Of a stretch of DNA of 7,648 nt, positions 1,795 through 7,487 are shown in pieces. The translations under genes were made by a program, and so were the position numbers. Source of the DNA: a virus; the IMG/VR virus record IMGVR_UViG_3300029767_000164, positions 1 to 7,648 of that record. One strand, given 5' to 3'. The notes under the pieces were generated by a model. That model was not told where the DNA came from, made no database searches, and worked only from the letters and a program-made list of their open reading frames with translations. The number at the start of each line of letters is the position of its first letter. The first letter of the stretch is position 1.

Positions 1795-2031
1795 TTAAGC
1801 TGCGGTATCAATATAATCAATAACTGTTACGGTTAAGGTGCTTGAAAAAGTTTTCACGCTATCAAGAATTTTTTCAAGGGTTTCAACTGTTTCATTAGAA
1901 AAATATTCTTCTCCGCATTGTGTACATTTTTCGCAAGGTACATTTTTAATCACAACAACGAAATTATCAATTTTTTCAATATATTCTGTTGTTGTCTGTT
2001 CTGCATTGCCTCGGCAAAAGAAACAAGTCAT
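1795..2031 (-). CDS. YgiT/MqsA-N-type zinc-ribbon protein without an HTH domain (putative antitoxin, copy 1)
   Basis: 78 aa with CxxC (CFFC) near the N-terminus and NVPCEKCTQCGEEY later, the YgiT-type zinc-finger pattern. The start ATG (2031-2029) lies 1 nt after the stop of the upstream DUF4258-like gene (TAA-t-ATG). The SD AGGAGAG is embedded in the upstream gene's 3' end. Confidence 0.85.
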   Translation of the reverse strand: MTCFFCRGNAEQTTTEYIEKIDNFVVVIKNVPCEKCTQCGEEYFSNETVETLEKILDSVKTFSSTLTVTVIDYIDTAA

Positions 2032-2032
2032 A

Positions 2033-2353
2033 TTATTTCACTCTCCTTGTTTTAAAATCATTTTCCCATTTATCCGGTTCGGGATAGTATGCGGTTACAG
2101 CATACAAATATTCTTCATCATAGCCTGTTACATTATGCAACGGCATTTGTTTAAGACTTTGACCGCAAATTAAACAACTTGGAAGTCTTGCTGACTGTGG
2201 ATAGTGTTCGATTATTTCGCCTGTGAAAATACTGTTTTTGTAATCATCTTTAGATATATTACGTTCACGCAAACGCTTAAATGCGTGAAGTGACCATTTT
2301 ATTTGGTCTGATTCACATCGTTTTCGCACTTCTTCAATATCTATTTCTTTCAT
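2033..2353 (-). CDS. DUF4258-like protein (putative toxin, copy 1)
   Basis: 106 aa carrying LHAFKRLRERNIS, GEIIEHYP, PLHNV and a C-terminal WENDFKTRR. I recognise these motifs as the DUF4258 family, and they are shared with the paralog at 3154-3483. The SD AGGAGGG lies 6 nt upstream of the ATG. Confidence 0.85.
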   Translation of the reverse strand: MKEIDIEEVRKRCESDQIKWSLHAFKRLRERNISKDDYKNSIFTGEIIEHYPQSARLPSCLICGQSLKQMPLHNVTGYDEEYLYAVTAYYPEPDKWENDFKTRRVK

Positions 2354-2924: not shown

Positions 2925-3152
2925 TCAAGCAACTTCCGAATAATTCAATTCAGCAATACCCGAAACAATATTTTTCACTTGGTTTATCAATTCTTGAATA
3001 CGAACAGAAACGTCGAATGAATATGATTTTTCGCCACATTGTGTACATACTTGAGTAGGCACGTTGTGTATAACAATAATGCAATTCCCTAAATCTGCAA
3101 TATAATTTGTAAGCTTATTTTCTGTACTTGATTTACATAATAGACATTTCAT
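2925..3152 (-). CDS. YgiT/MqsA-N-type zinc-ribbon protein without an HTH domain (putative antitoxin, copy 2)
   Basis: 75 aa with CLLC and NVPTQVCTQCGEKS, alignable over its whole length with 1795-2031. The start lies 1 nt after the upstream stop (TAA-a-ATG). Confidence 0.85.
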   Translation of the reverse strand: MKCLLCKSSTENKLTNYIADLGNCIIVIHNVPTQVCTQCGEKSYSFDVSVRIQELINQVKNIVSGIAELNYSEVA

Positions 3153-3153
3153 T

Positions 3154-3483
3154 TTATAAACCCTTCTTTCTTGTTTTAAAGTCTTTTTCCCATTCTATAT
3201 TATTCGGGAAATATTCTGTTATTATCCAAACAACATCTTCTCCTATGGCACAAACTATGTGTATATATTTTTCGCTTGATGTTTTACCGATTACGAGGAA
3301 GCTTTTGTATGGATAATCATTTGGATATTCTTCGATTATTTCGCATCGCTTTAATGCCGGAAGTATATCGGTAAGAATATCTATCGAACGTTCGTTAGCT
3401 CGTTTTAATGCGTGGTCTGTCATTTGTATCTTGTGTGCTTTACTTAGGTTGTGAATTTGTTCTAATTCATTCAATATCATCAC
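3154..3483 (-). CDS. DUF4258-like protein (putative toxin, copy 2)
   Basis: 109 aa carrying DHALKRANERSID, CEIIEEYP, YIHIV and WEKDFKTRK, which makes it a paralog of 2033-2353. The same start ambiguity applies (GTG 3483 or ATG 3480). Confidence 0.85.
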   Translation of the reverse strand: MMILNELEQIHNLSKAHKIQMTDHALKRANERSIDILTDILPALKRCEIIEEYPNDYPYKSFLVIGKTSSEKYIHIVCAIGEDVVWIITEYFPNNIEWEKDFKTRKKGL

Positions 3484-3533: not shown

Positions 3534-4178
3534 TTAAAAACCGACTTTACATTCAACTACTTTTCCTACTATCTCAACATCGTCTTGTTTTAAGTCATAA
3601 ATTTGTGTTTGATGTTCGGGGTTATAAGATTGAGGCATAAGCATAACAATATTTTTCTCTTGCTTAAAGCGCTTTATCGTAAAAGTGTCATGATTAATGC
3701 GAACAGCGGCAATTTCGCCGTTTTCAACTGTTGGTTGTACGCGAACAGTTACAAGACTTCCGTCGGGAATGTTTGCGGCGGTCATACTATCGCCCTTTAC
3801 TTTTAAAGCAAAATATTTACCACCATGATTTAATTCTGTATAAGTATATCCCTCATAATTTTCTTCCGAAAATATCGGTAATCCTGCCGCAATATCTCCT
3901 AAGATAGGTATTCTGTGCATTACAGGATTGTATGGGACTGCTCCGTCGGGTAATGGCGGAAGTTCTTTCATTGGTACATCTTCTCCCATTAACCAAGGTA
4001 TAGAAACATTTAGAATATTTGCGTAAGTATCTAATCGTTTTTGCTTAGCTACATATTTACCTGATTTGTATTGACTCATTACACTTTCAGGAGTATCTGT
4101 AAGTCTGCATAATTCAGCGGCGCTCATACCATTATATTTTAAAGCCTCTTTTAAGCGCTCGGCAAATGTAGATTTCAT
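3534..4178 (-). CDS. Phage CI-like repressor: XRE-family HTH plus S24 (LexA/CI-type) self-cleaving peptidase domain
   Basis: 214 aa. The N-terminal HTH is LKYNGMSAAELCRLTDTPESVMSQYKSGK. A LexA-like AA-G cleavage motif lies in ILGDIAAGLP. The catalytic Ser is in KGDSM and the Lys in TIKRF. The gene is divergent from a Cro-like gene. Confidence 0.95.
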   Translation of the reverse strand: MKSTFAERLKEALKYNGMSAAELCRLTDTPESVMSQYKSGKYVAKQKRLDTYANILNVSIPWLMGEDVPMKELPPLPDGAVPYNPVMHRIPILGDIAAGLPIFSEENYEGYTYTELNHGGKYFALKVKGDSMTAANIPDGSLVTVRVQPTVENGEIAAVRINHDTFTIKRFKQEKNIVMLMPQSYNPEHQTQIYDLKQDDVEIVGKVVECKVGF

Positions 4179-4201: not shown

Positions 4202-4230
4202 ATTATACAATAAACTTTGCAAAAACGCAA
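4202..4230 (-). promoter_or_regulatory. Leftward promoter for the repressor gene
   Basis: On the minus strand: TTGCGT (-35, plus 4225-4230), a 17-nt spacer, then TATAAT (-10, plus 4202-4207). The SD AGAGGTGAG follows, then the ATG at 4178. An ACTTTGCAAAA half-operator (4214-4224) lies in the spacer. Confidence 0.6.
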
Positions 4231-4270
4231 TATTTATTTTGAAAAAAATAAAAAAACTTTGCAAAACCTA

Positions 4271-4299
4271 TTGACTTTGCAAAACCAAAGTGTTATAAT
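4271..4299 (+). promoter_or_regulatory. Rightward early promoter for the Cro-like gene
   Basis: TTGACT (4271-4276), a 17-nt spacer, then TATAAT (4294-4299). It is followed by the SD AGGAGGTG (4321-4328) and the GTG start at 4334. Confidence 0.75.
4274..4291. promoter_or_regulatory. Operator O1: ACTTTG-CAAAAC-CAAAGT palindrome overlapping the rightward promoter spacer
   Basis: Perfect 6-bp inverted half-sites separated by 6 bp, lying between the -35 and -10 of the rightward promoter. Confidence 0.6.
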
Positions 4300-4300
4300 G

Positions 4301-4318
4301 ACTTTGTAAACACAAAGT
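4301..4318. promoter_or_regulatory. Operator O2: ACTTTG-TAAACA-CAAAGT palindrome just downstream of the -10
   Basis: Same half-sites and spacing as O1, and covers the predicted transcription start region. Additional ACTTTGCAAAA half-sites lie at 4214-4224 and 4256-4266. Confidence 0.6.
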
Positions 4319-4333: not shown

Positions 4334-4582
4334 GTGTACAATTATAGCAAGCTTTTAGGTAGAATTAAAGAAAAAGGTTTTACTTTAGAAGCATTAGCAA
4401 AGAAAATAGGTCTTAATGTATCTACTCTAAGCAAGAAACTCAACAATAAAAGCGAATTTCATCAAGATGAAATTAAAAAAATATGTAGAGTGATTGATAT
4501 AGAAATGTGTGATATAGGAACTTATTTTTTTTGCCAAGAGACTTTGGTTTTACAAAGTAACGTAGGTAATATAAGAAAGTAG
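4334..4582 (+). CDS. Cro-like early regulator, DUF739-type HTH protein
   Basis: 82 aa. YSKLLGRIKEKGFTLEALAKKIGLNVSTLSKKLNNKSEFHQDEIKKICRVIDI ... YFF matches the pattern I recognise for DUF739 phage regulators. The start is a GTG 5 nt after AGGAGGTG. The last 16 codons run through operator O3 and repeat copy 1. Confidence 0.85.
   Translation: MYNYSKLLGRIKEKGFTLEALAKKIGLNVSTLSKKLNNKSEFHQDEIKKICRVIDIEMCDIGTYFFCQETLVLQSNVGNIRK
4541..4558. promoter_or_regulatory. Operator O3 (distal): ACTTTG-GTTTTA-CAAAGT palindrome inside the 3' end of the Cro-like gene
   Basis: A third perfect copy of the half-site pair with the same 6-bp spacing, about 250 bp downstream of O1/O2. Confidence 0.5.
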
Positions 4583-6440: not shown

Positions 6441-6611
6441 ATGAACAAATATGTAATAATGACGGGCAGAGATGATGTAGTGGTTTTAAACGCCGATGAC
6501 AACAAGTCGGTTAAGGCATACATAGCAAAAGGATACGGCATAACAAATCGTATCAAGTCAAAGCACCCGCTTGAAATGAGTGTTGCGAAGATTATCAGTG
6601 GAGATAATTAA
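6441..6611 (+). CDS. Small hypothetical protein, 56 aa
   Basis: MNKYVIMTGRDDVVVLNADDNKSVKAYIAKGYGITNRIKSKHPLEMSVAKIISGDN. AAAGGA lies 10 nt upstream. Confidence 0.55.
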   Translation: MNKYVIMTGRDDVVVLNADDNKSVKAYIAKGYGITNRIKSKHPLEMSVAKIISGDN

Positions 6612-6617
6612 ACGGCT

Positions 6618-6899
6618 ATGACGAAATACGAATTTGACGATTGGGCGTGCATAGACGAGGACTTTGCTTGTCGTGATGACGACTTCGCCTGTATCGACGA
6701 TGATTGGGCGTGCATAGATGATGATGACGCAGTATGCGACGATGAACGCGACGGACTTACGGAAGAAGAAGCCGACGCATACGAAAAGGAAAAAGCGTGG
6801 TATGACCTATTCAAAGAGGTATTGCAGTATCCGTACAGTTACGGATTATCTTGGGGAATAGTTTTAGCATACAGACAACCTATAAAATATCAGAATTAG
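6618..6899 (+). CDS. Extremely acidic protein (93 aa) with a Cys-containing heptad repeat
   Basis: The N-terminal 59 residues include 26 Asp/Glu against 5 Lys/Arg. A D-[WF]-A-C-[IR]-D-[DE] unit occurs four times, followed by a degenerate DDAVCDD. The C-terminal part is aromatic and hydrophobic (YPYSYGLSWGIVLAY). Confidence 0.75.
   Translation: MTKYEFDDWACIDEDFACRDDDFACIDDDWACIDDDDAVCDDERDGLTEEEADAYEKEKAWYDLFKEVLQYPYSYGLSWGIVLAYRQPIKYQN
6639..6743 (+). repeat. Five in-frame tandem 21-bp units encoding the heptad repeat
   Basis: Unit 1 is GATTGGGCGTGCATAGACGAG and unit 4 is GATTGGGCGTGCATAGATGAT; they differ at 2 of 21 positions. Units 2, 3 and 5 are more diverged. Confidence 0.85.
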
Positions 6900-6911
6900 G
6901 AGGTGAGAAGT

Positions 6912-7061
6912 GTGGCAGATGAGAAAACGGCGGAAATACTGAAATTGTATAGCGATTTAACACCGAATGAAAAGCATTTGGTAGGTGTTTTCGTAAATGC
7001 GATGATACTTAGTCGCAATAAAAATGACCGTCAGAGCGGCAACTCAATAACGGTCAAATAA
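6912..7061 (+). CDS. Small hypothetical protein, 49 aa
   Basis: The GTG start lies 6 nt after AGGAGGTG (6898-6905). The product is (M)ADEKTAEILKLYSDLTPNEKHLVGVFVNAMILSRNKNDRQSGNSITVK. Confidence 0.55.
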   Translation: MADEKTAEILKLYSDLTPNEKHLVGVFVNAMILSRNKNDRQSGNSITVK

Positions 7062-7065
7062 AAGC

Positions 7066-7086
7066 ACATAGATTATTAATCTATGT
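7066..7086. other. 21-bp palindrome / hairpin (9-bp arms, 3-nt centre)
   Basis: ACATAGATT att AATCTATGT, lying between two plus-strand genes. No U-tract follows. Confidence 0.4.
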
Positions 7087-7118
7087 CAACATTATATCAC
7101 AGAAAGGAATAAAAATCA

Positions 7119-7487
7119 ATGCAAATTGTAATTAGGCTTGAACAGAAAGATTTTGAGGGTAACAAGGAAGTATTCGACCGAATGTACGGATTATGTTCGG
7201 TACTCAACAAAAAGACGGGACCTGTGGAGATGACAAAGGCGGAAGTTGAGAAATCGGCGAACGTTGTAAGAGAGGAACAGACGTCAGACGATACGCCGAC
7301 AGAGGATAATACCGCCGAAGTGGAATACACAATAGAGGAAGTACGCAAGGCATTCGGTGAATATGCGAAGTCGCAGGGCAGAGATAAGGCCAAGGGACTG
7401 CTTCAAGAAATGGGTTACGACAAAGTAACGGAAATACCGCCTGAGCGATACACAGAGGCGATGACGAGAATAGGAGATGTGAAGTAA
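7119..7487 (+). CDS. Hypothetical phage protein, 122 aa, acidic centre
   Basis: This is the longest ORF in the region and its codon usage is consistent with neighbouring plus-strand genes. Its stop overlaps the next start (TAATG at 7485-7489). Confidence 0.8.
   Translation: MQIVIRLEQKDFEGNKEVFDRMYGLCSVLNKKTGPVEMTKAEVEKSANVVREEQTSDDTPTEDNTAEVEYTIEEVRKAFGEYAKSQGRDKAKGLLQEMGYDKVTEIPPERYTEAMTRIGDVK

What the first reader, a model, noticed from the sequence alone, without database searches (positions are those of the whole stretch)
6618..6899. Hyper-acidic early protein with a D-[WF]-A-C-[IR]-D-[DE] heptad repeated in tandem
The first 59 residues contain 26 Asp/Glu and 5 Lys/Arg. Four clean 7-residue units and one degenerate unit are encoded by in-frame 21-bp tandem repeats (6639-6743). 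Each unit places one Cys and one Trp/Phe at fixed spacing. The gene sits among small early ORFs, where phages commonly keep anti-defence genes. Strongly acidic early proteins include known DNA mimics such as Ocr and ArdA-type anti-restriction proteins and some anti-CRISPRs. The regularly spaced Cys residues alternatively suggest metal binding. The 21-bp repeat could also expand or contract in frame. I recognise no family.
Basis: partly seen in the sequence, partly recalled or inferred. Interest (0 to 1): 0.65.

Follow-up and report, generated by a model that had tools for sequence, protein, structure and literature searches.

The report
Acidic heptad-repeat phage early protein
A small, very acidic prophage protein with a disordered array of seven-residue repeats belongs to an undescribed family and sits in a swappable accessory slot, so it may be a decoy that binds a host protein, but its target is unknown.

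Summary
ORF 6618-6899 (+) encodes 93 aa, with 26 D/E and 5 K/R in the first 59 residues. Five in-frame 21-bp units encode DWACIDE/DFACRDD/DFACIDD/DWACIDD/DDAVCDD. The gene is under purifying selection (pN/pS about 0.2).

It belongs to an unannotated family of about 40 small proteins (61-121 aa) from phage and mobile-element early regions. The shared build is 1-6 heptads D-D-D-[FWLY]-[AST]-[CILV]-[IYV], a conserved C-D-x-D-x-DGLT-x-EE junction, and a confidently predicted three-helix C-terminal domain. AlphaFold2 leaves the repeat region disordered.

Pfam, PHROGs, NCBIfam, PADLOC, PDB and Foldseek give no match.

- The repeat cysteines are not family-conserved. They swap with I/L/V, and four members have no Cys at all, so thiolate metal binding is unlikely.
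- Repeat number varies in frame from 2 to 8 units among near-identical alleles.
- In related Hominilimicola-type prophages, this gene plus the downstream 52-aa ORF form a dispensable cassette. About 30 loci carry it, 25 carry an unrelated cassette and 11 have a clean deletion.

My best guess, at moderate-low confidence, is a multivalent disordered acidic decoy for a host nucleic-acid-binding protein, analogous to SPO1 Gp44. It has no homology to Ocr or ArdA.

The parts
6618..6899 (+). Coding gene for the 93-aa acidic repeat protein (stop TAG 6897-6899)
   Evidence: ORF list and translation. 28 close homologues. In 19 unique intact alleles, 16 synonymous and 15 nonsynonymous polymorphisms fall over 48.7 and 230.3 sites, giving pN/pS about 0.2.
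6636..6737 (+). Heptad array, residues 7-40. In the family register D-D-D-Phi-small-h-h it reads (x)DD-WACI, DED-FACR, DDD-FACI, DDD-WACI, DDD-DAVC. Predicted intrinsically disordered.
   Evidence: Searches show the repeat. pLDDT is 31-39 with the 10-sequence alignment and 43-55 with the 31-sequence alignment, with no secondary structure in the deeper-alignment model. The family logo from 83 units is.
6738..6770 (+). Conserved junction D41-D-E-R-D-G-L-T-E-E-E51. It is DxDxDG-like, and T-x-E-E looks like a helix N-cap. With C40 it is the most conserved stretch of the whole family.
   Evidence: Alignment A2: D41, D45, G46 nearly invariant and E51 invariant. In A4, C, DG and E are invariant.
6759..6887 (+). 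C-terminal helical domain, about residues 48-90 (helices 49-70, 72-75, 79-86), ending in the conserved P-I-K-Y-Q tail
   Evidence: AlphaFold2 with the 31-sequence alignment gives pLDDT 85-91 over residues 51-90. Conserved P72, Y75, G76, Y85, P88, K90, Y91 and Q92.
6903..7061 (+). Downstream 52-aa ORF, in the same reading frame. Its likely true start is GTG 6910, behind the RBS AGGAGGTGA that overlaps the target's stop codon. It is the second gene of the same exchangeable cassette.
   Evidence: In-frame stop-loss fusions P0001-3 and deletion fusion P0013. A homologue follows the 58%-identical family member in L003. The right cassette junction lies in its 3' end.
6441..6611 (+). Conserved 56-aa ORF forming the left flank of the variable cassette. 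Its stop lies 6 nt before the target's ATG, so translational coupling is possible.
   Evidence: 70 IMG/VR loci carry it, with three alternative downstream states.
7119..7487 (+). Conserved 122-aa ORF (phrog_3709/408, unknown function) forming the right flank of the cassette
   Evidence: Its homologue follows the alternative cassette in L087 and follows the target in L001 and L118.
4271..4299 (+). Likely rightward early promoter (TTGACT-17-TATAAT, extended -10) among repeated ACTTTGCAAAA operator-like sites. It would drive the operon that contains the target.
   Evidence: No convincing plus-strand terminator lies between it and 6618.

Best explanation
The gene encodes a translated, non-essential accessory protein of the prophage's early (lytic) operon. 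It has two parts.

- Residues about 7-40 form an intrinsically disordered, hyper-acidic array of short linear motifs: D-D-D-[aromatic/Leu]-[small]-[Cys/Ile/Leu/Val]-[Ile/Tyr/Val].
- Residues about 48-90 form a small three-helix domain, joined to the array by a conserved C-D-x-D-x-DGLT-x-EE segment.

I propose that the array works as a multivalent decoy. Each unit offers a triple-Asp patch, resembling phosphates or an acidic tail, plus a short hydrophobic strand. Together the units would occupy the basic nucleic-acid-binding or peptide-binding surface of a host protein early in infection. Candidate targets are a defence nuclease or sensor, RNA polymerase, a nucleoid protein, or an SSB-tail-binding enzyme. 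The helical domain would give oligomerisation or a second, specific contact. Repeat number would tune avidity and changes easily by slippage.

Shown: coding status, family membership, architecture, predicted disorder, repeat-number variation, and dispensable cassette status. Inferred: binding to a host protein, the identity of that protein, and any anti-defence outcome.
For: - Coding and constrained: pN/pS is about 0.2. In the repeat part, 9 synonymous changes fall over 19.7 sites against 7 nonsynonymous over 109.3.
- Units 2 and 3 share 6/7 residues but only 14/21 bases, with 4 synonymous codon differences. Selection therefore acts on the peptide, not the DNA.
- The family architecture persists down to about 30% identity.
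- Two AlphaFold2 runs leave the array without structure and give pLDDT 85-91 for the C-terminal helices.
- Composition of residues 7-43: 20 of 37 are D/E (54%), with one basic residue (read directly from the sequence; full composition). This resembles the disordered, repeat-containing, 57% D/E middle domain of SPO1 Gp44, which mimics ssDNA and binds RNAP beta/beta' (PMC8208478).
- All family members examined lie in phage or mobile-element early or accessory regions, with no conserved enzyme neighbour.
- In related prophages the gene plus the 52-aa ORF is present in about 30 loci, replaced by an unrelated two-gene cassette in 25, and cleanly deleted in 11, between conserved flanks. It also occurs with two different replication modules. 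This is the behaviour of an accessory, host-directed gene rather than a core replication factor.
Against: - No partner, binding or phenotype has been shown.
- No homology to any known DNA mimic or anti-defence protein, and no fold match.
- Low pLDDT is only a proxy for disorder. The array might fold on binding metal ions or in an oligomer.
- Classical DNA mimics such as Ocr and ArdA are rigid folded proteins, unlike this one.
- Several alleles have a frameshifted C-terminus, and many related prophages lack the gene altogether. It could therefore be only weakly useful.
- RNA or read evidence of expression could not be obtained.
Confidence: 0.4

Rival explanations
1. Divalent-cation (Ca2+/Mg2+) binding protein. 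The Asp triplets and the DxDxDG-like junction (D41-x-E43-x-D45-G46) chelate hard cations. The array folds or oligomerises on binding, acting as an ion buffer or sensor, or as a cation-dependent scaffold.
For: Every unit carries D-D-D: D in 81, 74 and 83 of 83 units at positions 1-3. The junction C-D-D-[DE]-R-D-G-L-T is the best-conserved stretch and resembles the DxDxDG calcium-binding loop (my own knowledge of that motif class).
Against: Several members shorten the loop to D-x-D-D-G, for example CDSDDGLT and CDIDDGLT, which breaks the DxDxDG spacing. The Glu that would be EF-hand position 12 sits at position 11. No Pfam EF-hand, dockerin, Excalibur or TSP3 hit appears. The conserved hydrophobic positions 4, 6 and 7 are not explained by ion binding.
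Confidence: 0.12
2. The protein acts on the phage's own machinery. It could be an acidic chaperone or antagonist for a basic phage protein, for example the product of the co-inherited 52-aa ORF or a DNA-binding early regulator, and so time the lytic programme rather than attack the host.
For: The target and the 52-aa ORF are always inherited or lost together. They are fused in frame in some alleles (P0001-3, P0013). A homologue of the small ORF follows a 58%-identical relative.
Against: The 52-aa product is only weakly basic, about +2 by my own count from its sequence. More distant family members (L002, L040, L041, L048) have no such neighbour. The cassette is dispensable and is independent of the replication module type.
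Confidence: 0.15
3. Cysteine-based function: thiolate metal binding (Zn, Fe-S, Cu) or redox sensing by the Cys placed every seven residues.
For: Cys occurs once per unit in this subfamily and in relatives down to 44% identity (P0014, P0020, P0028). C40 in the last unit is widely conserved.
Against: At the family level the repeat Cys position holds C 21, I 21, L 16, V 12 and T 6 of 83 units. P0051, P0069, P0070 and P0071 have no Cys at all. There is no CxxC-type spacing, and no Pfam metal-binding hit.
Confidence: 0.05
4. The 21-bp repeats work at the DNA level, as iterons or an origin, or as a protein-binding array upstream of the replication module. On this view the ORF is incidental.
For: Tandem direct repeats lie just upstream of replication genes. 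Some phages place origin iterons inside coding sequence (my own knowledge, e.g. lambda ori within gene O).
Against: The units are more alike as peptides than as DNA: units 2 and 3 share 6/7 aa but 14/21 nt, with 4 synonymous differences. Distant homologues keep the peptide pattern. The same gene accompanies two unrelated replication modules, and 36 related prophages lack it entirely. Purifying selection acts on the protein.
Confidence: 0.03
5. Precursor of a ribosomally made, post-translationally modified peptide, for example Cys-Asp thioether (ranthipeptide-like CX3D) cross-links. The C-terminal helices would serve as a recognition or follower sequence.
For: Each unit reads C-I-D-D-D, which matches a C-x3-D spacing. 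This is a resemblance recalled from my own knowledge of freyrasin-type peptides, not a test.
Against: No radical-SAM or other maturase lies within 10 kb in L001, L004, L044 or L045. The only radical-SAM gene seen is 9 kb from a distant member in L040. Cys is not conserved in the family. There is no transporter or protease gene nearby.
Confidence: 0.02

Closest known systems
Bacillus phage SPO1 Gp44, middle domain residues 56-122 (PMC8208478)
   Same: Both are early, host-directed proteins of phages infecting Bacillota. Both have a hyper-acidic stretch (57% D/E in Gp44, 54% here over residues 7-43) that is almost free of basic residues, contains internal repeats, is disordered, and is attached to folded parts. 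Gp44's stretch acts as a flexible ssDNA mimic that binds RNAP beta/beta'.
   Different: There is no sequence relationship, and PHROGs gives no hit. Gp44 is 27 kDa with an N-terminal DNA-binding domain. This protein is 11 kDa, has a strict 7-residue motif with conserved aromatic and aliphatic positions, and carries a C-terminal helical domain. Its target is unknown.
Ocr (T7 gp0.3) and ArdA anti-restriction DNA mimics
   Different: Ocr and ArdA are rigid folded dimers whose carboxylates trace B-form DNA (my own knowledge). Here the acidic part is predicted disordered. No Pfam match to their families appears, and Foldseek finds nothing.
Bacterial SSB C-terminal tip (D-D-D-[IL]-P-F-COOH)
   Same: The heptad's first six residues, D-D-D-Phi-x-Phi, follow the same acidic-then-hydrophobic pattern. 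That pattern, D[DE]D[ILFWYM]x[FWYILVC], occurs 66 times in 39 family proteins. SSB presents four such tips per tetramer, and the commonest allele has four clean units.
   Different: The motifs here are internal, lack the Pro-Phe and lack the free C-terminal carboxylate that SSB-tip pockets recognise (my own knowledge). The protein's own C-terminus is P-I-K-Y-Q-N. Copy number ranges from 2 to 8 units. A literature search found no phage SSB-tail mimic.
Eukaryotic LIR/AIM and SIM short linear motifs (e.g. p62 D-D-D-W-T-H-L)
   Same: They share the same grammar, an acidic run followed by [WFY]-x-x-[LIV]. Three of the four clean units fit (DDWACI, DDFACI, DDWACI). Such motifs bind by adding a beta-strand to a partner and are often used in tandem for avidity.
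   Different: Their receptors, Atg8/LC3 and SUMO, are eukaryotic. This is a cytoplasmic protein of a prophage of a gut Clostridia bacterium. The likeness is one of principle only, not of family.

Membership tests
Ocr (T7 gp0.3-like) DNA mimic | Sequence match to the Ocr family profile | tested here: not met
   No Pfam or PHROGs family at E<=0.1 for the window protein, and none for 31 family members.
Ocr (T7 gp0.3-like) DNA mimic | Rigid folded helical body whose surface carboxylates imitate bent B-DNA | tested here: not met
   The acidic region has pLDDT 31-55 with no stable secondary structure in two AF2 runs. Foldseek against PDB and BFVD gives 0 matches.
ArdA anti-restriction protein | Sequence match to the ArdA family profile or to solved ArdA | tested here: not met
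   No Pfam hit. The A2 profile against all PDB sequences gives a best E of 0.19, to unrelated proteins.
Disordered acidic nucleic-acid mimic (SPO1 Gp44 type; a functional class, not a homology family) | Over 50% D/E, almost no basic residues, internal repeats, predicted disorder | tested here: met
   Residues 7-43 are 54% D/E with one Arg (read directly from the sequence; composition of the protein). Lag-7 repeat shown. Low pLDDT. Gp44 description.
Disordered acidic nucleic-acid mimic (SPO1 Gp44 type; a functional class, not a homology family) | Demonstrated competition with nucleic acid for a DNA- or RNA-binding protein | not testable with these tools
   Needs binding assays. No partner is known.
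Cys-ligand metal-binding repeat (metallothionein, Zn or Fe-S type) | Ligand cysteines conserved across homologues | tested here: not met
   Heptad position 6 holds C 21, I 21, L 16, V 12 and T 6 of 83 units. Four members have no Cys.
DxDxDG / EF-hand-like calcium loop | D-x-[DN]-x-[DN]-G with fixed spacing, plus an acidic ligand at loop position 12 | tested here: inconclusive
   The window has D41-D-E-R-D-G, and most relatives have C-D-D-D-R-D-G. Several members have the shorter D-x-D-D-G, and the invariant Glu lies at position 11. No Pfam EF-hand-type hit.
RiPP precursor (sacti-/ranthipeptide type) | Co-located radical-SAM or other maturase, and conserved acceptor Cys | tested here: not met
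   No such gene lies within the flanks fetched (up to 10 kb) in L001, L004, L044 or L045. Cys is not conserved.
Replication-origin iterons | Repeat conserved as DNA, more than as peptide, and tied to one initiator or replication module | tested here: not met
   Synonymous differences between units. The gene occurs with two replication modules and is absent from 36 related prophages.
SSB C-terminal tip mimic | D-D-D-[IL]-P-F at the extreme C-terminus with a free carboxylate | tested here: not met
   The motifs are internal, and the C-terminus is P-I-K-Y-Q-N. Only the looser DDD-Phi-x-Phi pattern is shared.
Known anti-phage defence system component | Match to a PADLOC model | tested here: not met
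   No PADLOC hit for the target, its neighbours or three distant members.

The most novel reading that the evidence does not exclude
The D-D-D-Phi-x-Phi-Phi heptad array may be a new kind of phage weapon: a tandem array of short linear motifs that imitates an acidic host peptide signal. The most obvious candidate signal is the SSB C-terminal tip (DDD-Phi-P-F). The array would titrate the proteins that read that signal, such as repair and recombination enzymes or defence sensors that monitor SSB. Avidity would be tuned by rapid in-frame repeat gain and loss. This would bring eukaryotic-virus-style motif mimicry into phage-host conflict.
Probability: 0.08. Interest if true: 0.8.

Novelty: new variant of a known kind. 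Interest (0 to 1): 0.5.

Why it matters
Small acidic early proteins are a rich source of inhibitors of bacterial defence and core machinery, and most remain unannotated. This finding defines a previously undescribed family with a very regular, easily recognised motif grammar. Natural alleles form a ready-made series of 2, 4, 5, 6 and 8 units. The gene also sits in a clear present / replaced / deleted cassette polymorphism in prophages of a human-gut Oscillospiraceae genus. Together these make a concrete candidate for pull-down and defence-panel screens. If a target is found, the family would be an example of multivalent disordered mimicry in phages of strictly anaerobic gut bacteria, where almost no phage-host molecular biology is known. 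If no target is found, it remains an ordinary unknown accessory ORF.

Tried and rejected
- Pfam, PHROGs, NCBIfam and PADLOC gave nothing for the window protein or for 31 family members.
- A profile search of all PDB sequences gave only chance-level hits.
- Foldseek of two AF2 models against PDB and BFVD gave 0 matches.
- Megablast of the whole window against GenBank phages found no match.
- tblastn of the protein and of two distant members against phages, and of the protein against plasmids, found no match. The low-complexity filter may hide the repeat, but the C-terminal half also found nothing.
- The GTDB species-representative genome scan found 87 pattern matches, none of them a true relative. 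The host assignment therefore rests on one NCBI protein name, WP_337600056.1 from Hominilimicola sp..
- A broad-family scan of IMG/VR and JGI metagenomes added only L047 (same prophage type) and L048.
- Literature searches for a described family, a Hominilimicola prophage or a phage SSB-tail mimic found only the Gp44 analogy.
- The large eukaryote-like repeat proteins in the HMM search (P0029, P0038, P0044, P0046, P0049, P0061, P0063, P0064) were rejected as low-complexity look-alikes.
- The antisense Ser-rich ORF 6608-6814 was rejected as the mirror image of GAY codons.
- The RiPP, iteron and Cys-metal readings were considered and set aside for the reasons given under the rival explanations.
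Full report
**1. The observation**

The ORF at 6618-6899 on the plus strand starts with ATG and encodes 93 residues: MTKYEFDDWACIDEDFACRDDDFACIDDDWACIDDDDAVCDDERDGLTEEEADAYEKEKAWYDLFKEVLQYPYSYGLSWGIVLAYRQPIKYQN.

- The first 59 residues contain exactly 26 Asp/Glu and 5 Lys/Arg, and the whole protein has a pI of about 4.05.
- The five 21-bp units at 6639-6743 translate to DWACIDE, DFACRDD, DFACIDD, DWACIDD and DDAVCDD.
- Tandem Repeats Finder (period 21, 4.3 copies, 6635-6725) and the repeat finder see the same array.
- The periodicity does not follow from composition alone. Residues 7-43 give 20 of 30 identities at lag 7, against a maximum of 16 in 100,000 shuffles of the same residues.

**2. 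Setting in the window**

The window is the lysogeny-to-early-lytic junction of a temperate phage of a low-GC (36%) Bacillota host.

- On the minus strand lie a large serine recombinase (191-1669), two DUF4258 plus Zn-ribbon (YokU/MqsA-like) pairs, and a CI/LexA-like HTH-S24 repressor (3534-4178).
- A near-consensus promoter, TTGACT-17-TATAAT with an extended -10, sits at 4271-4299 among repeated ACTTTGCAAAA sites. It faces a cro-like HTH gene (4334-4582) and a string of small plus-strand ORFs that includes the target.
- On longer related contigs the string runs into a replication module and then the terminase.
- One member of the 90%-identity cluster is WP_337600056.1, 'hypothetical protein [Hominilimicola sp.]'. 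Hominilimicola is a genus of Oscillospiraceae, class Clostridia.

**3. It is a real gene under selection at the protein level**

- 28 close homologues exist in metagenome assemblies, and 35 IMG/VR viral contigs carry the gene, mostly as the intact 93-aa form.
- Among 19 distinct intact alleles from 29 loci there are 16 synonymous and 15 nonsynonymous variable positions over 48.7 synonymous and 230.3 nonsynonymous sites, so pN/pS is about 0.2. In the repeat region alone the counts are 9 and 7 over 19.7 and 109.3 sites.
- Repeat units 2 and 3 share 6 of 7 residues but only 14 of 21 bases, with four synonymous codon differences. What is conserved is the peptide, not the DNA.
- The target's own Shine-Dalgarno is weak and distant (GGAG about 14 nt upstream). 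Its ATG lies 6 nt after the stop of the upstream ORF, which suggests translational coupling.
- The distant relative in L002 has a canonical AAGGAG 8 nt upstream.

**4. A wider, unannotated family**

A profile search of 1.84 billion representative proteins found about 30 further small proteins of 61-121 aa. It also returned a few large eukaryote-like low-complexity proteins, which I discarded. A second indexed search added a few more members, and one came from a JGI contig.

All members share one build:

- a variable N-terminus;
- one to six heptads;
- a last, degenerate heptad ending in Cys;
- a junction C-D-x-[DE]-x-D-G-[LM]-[TL]-x-E-E;
- a long helix with a conserved A-x-A-Y-x-x-E;
- a C-terminal part that often ends P-[IV]-[KE]-Y-Q-x.

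Over 83 heptads from 39 proteins the logo is as follows:

| Heptad position | Residues seen (count of 83) |
|---|---|
| 1 | D 81 |
| 2 | D 74 |
| 3 | D 83 |
| 4 | F 36, W 20, L 12, Y 9, I 4, M 2 |
| 5 | A 31, S 16, T 11, I 8 |
| 6 | C 21, I 21, L 16, V 12, T 6 |
| 7 | I 29, Y 19, V 12, T 6, R 4, C 4 |

The family motif is therefore D-D-D-aromatic-small-hydrophobic-hydrophobic. Four members contain no cysteine at all. This removes the main support for regularly spaced thiolate ligands.

No member matches any Pfam, PHROGs, NCBIfam or PADLOC model. The family profile finds nothing in the PDB.

**5. Structure prediction**

- With 10 aligned sequences, AlphaFold2 gave pLDDT below 50 for residues 1-42 and helices from residue 49.
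- With 31 sequences, residues 51-90 rose to pLDDT 85-91 (helices 49-70, 72-75, 79-86). The repeat region stayed at 43-55 with no secondary structure.
- Foldseek found no similar fold in the PDB or in BFVD.
- The conserved D-G-L-T-P/E-E-E reads as the N-cap of the long helix. This is my inference from the usual S/T-x-x-E capping box.

The protein is best described as a disordered acidic motif array tethered to a small helical domain.

**6. Repeat number varies in frame**

Near-identical alleles carry different numbers of units.

| Allele | Length | Clean + degenerate units |
|---|---|---|
| P0075 | 72 aa | 1 + 1 |
| P0080 | 86 aa | 3 + 1 |
| Commonest form | 93 aa | 4 + 1 |
| P0085 | 100 aa | 5 + 1 |
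| P0012 | 90 aa (also has a 10-residue deletion downstream) | 5 + 1 |
| P0090 | 114 aa | 8 units in all |
| P0008 | 87 aa | 4 + 0 |

- The extra unit in L045 (P0012) is an exact 21-nt insertion.
- The 72-aa allele occurs on 24 contigs, including one of 92 kb, and alongside both replication-module types.
- Units 1 and 4 are 19/21 identical as DNA, which gives a substrate for slippage or unequal recombination.

**7. A dispensable, exchangeable cassette**

I used the conserved upstream 56-aa ORF (6441-6611) as an anchor and fetched 70 IMG/VR loci. Immediately downstream there are three states.

- **State A (about 30 loci).** The acidic-repeat gene followed by the 52-aa ORF.
- **State B (25 loci).** An unrelated pair. 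The first gene is a 90-101-aa ORF beginning MTAKQITELHDLCLQINL. The second is a 56-aa ORF (MNDEVENYNNEEF...) or an 86-aa ORF (MNNYYITFGSEG...).
- **State C (11 loci).** A clean deletion in which the 56-aa ORF runs into the last residues of the 52-aa ORF (...AKIIKENDRQSGNSITVK) and the replication gene follows.
- Five loci are cut off by contig ends.

The right-hand junction lies in the 3' end of the 52-aa ORF (...NDRQS[G/W]NSITVK). In L087, cassette B is followed by the homologue of window ORF 7119-7487. The proteins of cassette B are also unannotated.

State A occurs with two quite different replication modules:

- DUF2800 nuclease, Enc34-type ssDNA-binding protein, PolA, VapE-like primase-helicase and an SNF2 helicase in L001 and L118;
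- AAA_23, AAA_24, a DEAD helicase and a PriCT_2 primase in L004, L045 and L119.

The gene is therefore not a replication factor for one replisome and is not essential. It behaves like the accessory genes that phages swap at fixed hotspots.

More distant family members also lie in accessory stretches of phages or mobile elements:

- next to HTH regulators and an integrase (L002, L003);
- after SSB, ERCC4 and YopX genes (L041);
- among DUF932 and DUF6551 genes (L040);
- between an RNA ligase and a metallophosphoesterase just before the terminase (L048).

**8. What it most likely does**

The facts to explain are these:

- a strongly conserved motif grammar of three Asp followed by an aromatic-x-hydrophobic-hydrophobic strand;
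- multivalency with easily changed copy number;
- predicted disorder;
- a conserved folded tail;
- early expression;
- dispensability.

The simplest reading is a multivalent decoy. The array would bind a basic surface with adjacent hydrophobic pockets on a host protein that normally holds nucleic acid or an acidic peptide tail. The helical domain would add oligomerisation or specificity.

The nearest experimentally studied precedent I found is the middle domain of SPO1 Gp44. It is disordered, 57% Asp/Glu, free of basic residues and built of two repeats. It is reported to mimic single-stranded DNA and bind RNA polymerase beta/beta' (PMC8208478). The motif grammar also resembles the SSB C-terminal tip (DDD-Phi-P-F) and, as a matter of principle only, eukaryotic LIR and SIM motifs. 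These are resemblances from my own knowledge, not tests, and the defining features of the SSB tip are not met.

I put 0.4 on the general decoy mechanism. Within that, about half of the weight goes to an anti-defence outcome specifically. Nothing here identifies the target.

**9. Rivals**

- **Hard-cation binding (0.12).** The Asp triplets and the DxDxDG-like junction could bind Ca2+ or Mg2+. This is possible, but the loop length varies among members and the conserved hydrophobic positions are left unexplained.
- **A role on the phage's own proteins (0.15).** The co-inherited 52-aa product is the obvious candidate. Co-inheritance and the in-frame fusion alleles suggest it, but distant members lack that neighbour.
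- **Cys-based metal or redox chemistry (0.05).** It is contradicted at family level.
- **DNA-level iterons (0.03).** The idea is contradicted by the synonymous divergence between units, the two replication modules and the natural deletions.
- **RiPP precursor (0.02).** No maturase lies nearby and the Cys is not conserved.
- **Decaying, functionless ORF.** It is unlikely given pN/pS of about 0.2 and conservation down to about 30% identity. The frameshifted alleles show that loss is tolerated.

**10. Novelty and verdict**

The family is undescribed in every library searched and has no structural relatives. The most likely mode of action belongs to a known kind, acidic mimic or decoy proteins of phages, but in an unusual form: a strict hydrophobic-acidic heptad array of variable length on a helical stalk. 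I rate it a new variant of a known kind, with interest 0.5. It is a well-defined and experimentally convenient candidate, but there is as yet no evidence of what it binds.

Noticed in passing
window 6897-6899 and 6903-7061; L044 4001-4438: The target's TAG stop and the downstream 52-aa ORF are in the same frame. Three different stop-loss alleles (Q, Y or L at the stop; TAG->TTG seen in L044 DNA) give 145-aa fusions. One allele (P0013) fuses the two ORFs by an in-frame deletion. This may hint at tolerated or programmed read-through, or at a functional pairing.
   Followed up: partly
L001 about 10210; L004 about 8465 (corresponds to window about 6828-6833); window about 6786-6794: Recurrent frameshift alleles occur. 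A 1-nt insertion (TATCCG to TATCCCG) replaces the last 22 residues in two long contigs from different samples (P0010, P0011). Other alleles (P0018, P0019, P0021, P0025, L036, L037) shift frame near the A-run GAAAAAGCG. These may be real mutations or homopolymer sequencing errors.
   Followed up: partly
window 6441-7061 versus L073-L114: A cassette hotspot lies between the 56-aa ORF and the 122-aa ORF or replication genes. It holds the acidic-repeat cassette, an unrelated MTAKQITELHDLC.../MNDEVENY... cassette, or a clean deletion. The recombination junction is in the ...NDRQSGNSITVK coding end. The cassette B proteins are also unknown.
   Followed up: yes
window 1795-2353 and 2925-3483 (minus strand): Two tandem pairs of a DUF4258 protein (106 and 109 aa) with a small Zn-ribbon YokU/MqsA-like protein (78 and 75 aa) look like duplicated toxin-antitoxin modules. 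They lie between the integrase and the repressor, with an unannotated 137-aa ORF (2499-2912) between them. Pfam was run only on the first pair (1795-2353); the second pair is inferred from its matching ORF sizes and sequences. Related prophages (L001, L004) carry only one pair.
   Followed up: no
window 4210-4315: Three to four copies of ACTTTGCAAAA(C) (4214-4225, 4256-4268, 4273-4285, and a degenerate copy at 4301-4312) overlap the near-consensus rightward promoter between the repressor and cro-like genes. They are probably the operators of the genetic switch.
   Followed up: no
L048 5007-7773 (RHMF01000037.1): A distant family member (79 aa) lies between an RNA ligase (PF09414) and a calcineurin-like phosphoesterase, just upstream of the terminase genes. 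This neighbourhood recalls phage tRNA-repair genes used against anticodon nucleases.
   Followed up: partly
L001, L118 versus L004, L045, L119: Prophages that are near-identical through the lysogeny and early regions carry two unrelated replication modules: a PolA/VapE/DUF2800 type and an AAA_23/AAA_24/DEAD/PriCT_2 type. This is a clear case of module mosaicism.
   Followed up: no
protein P0027 (metagenome homologue): Its C-terminus...LSLIHISEPTRH, looks to me like the translation of an Illumina transposase adapter (from my own knowledge, not checked here), which would make it an assembly artefact in a public contig.
   Followed up: no
window 7069-7087: An AT-rich perfect hairpin, CATAGAT-TATTA-ATCTATG, lies just after the 52-aa ORF stop. 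It was not scored as a terminator, and its function is unknown.
   Followed up: no
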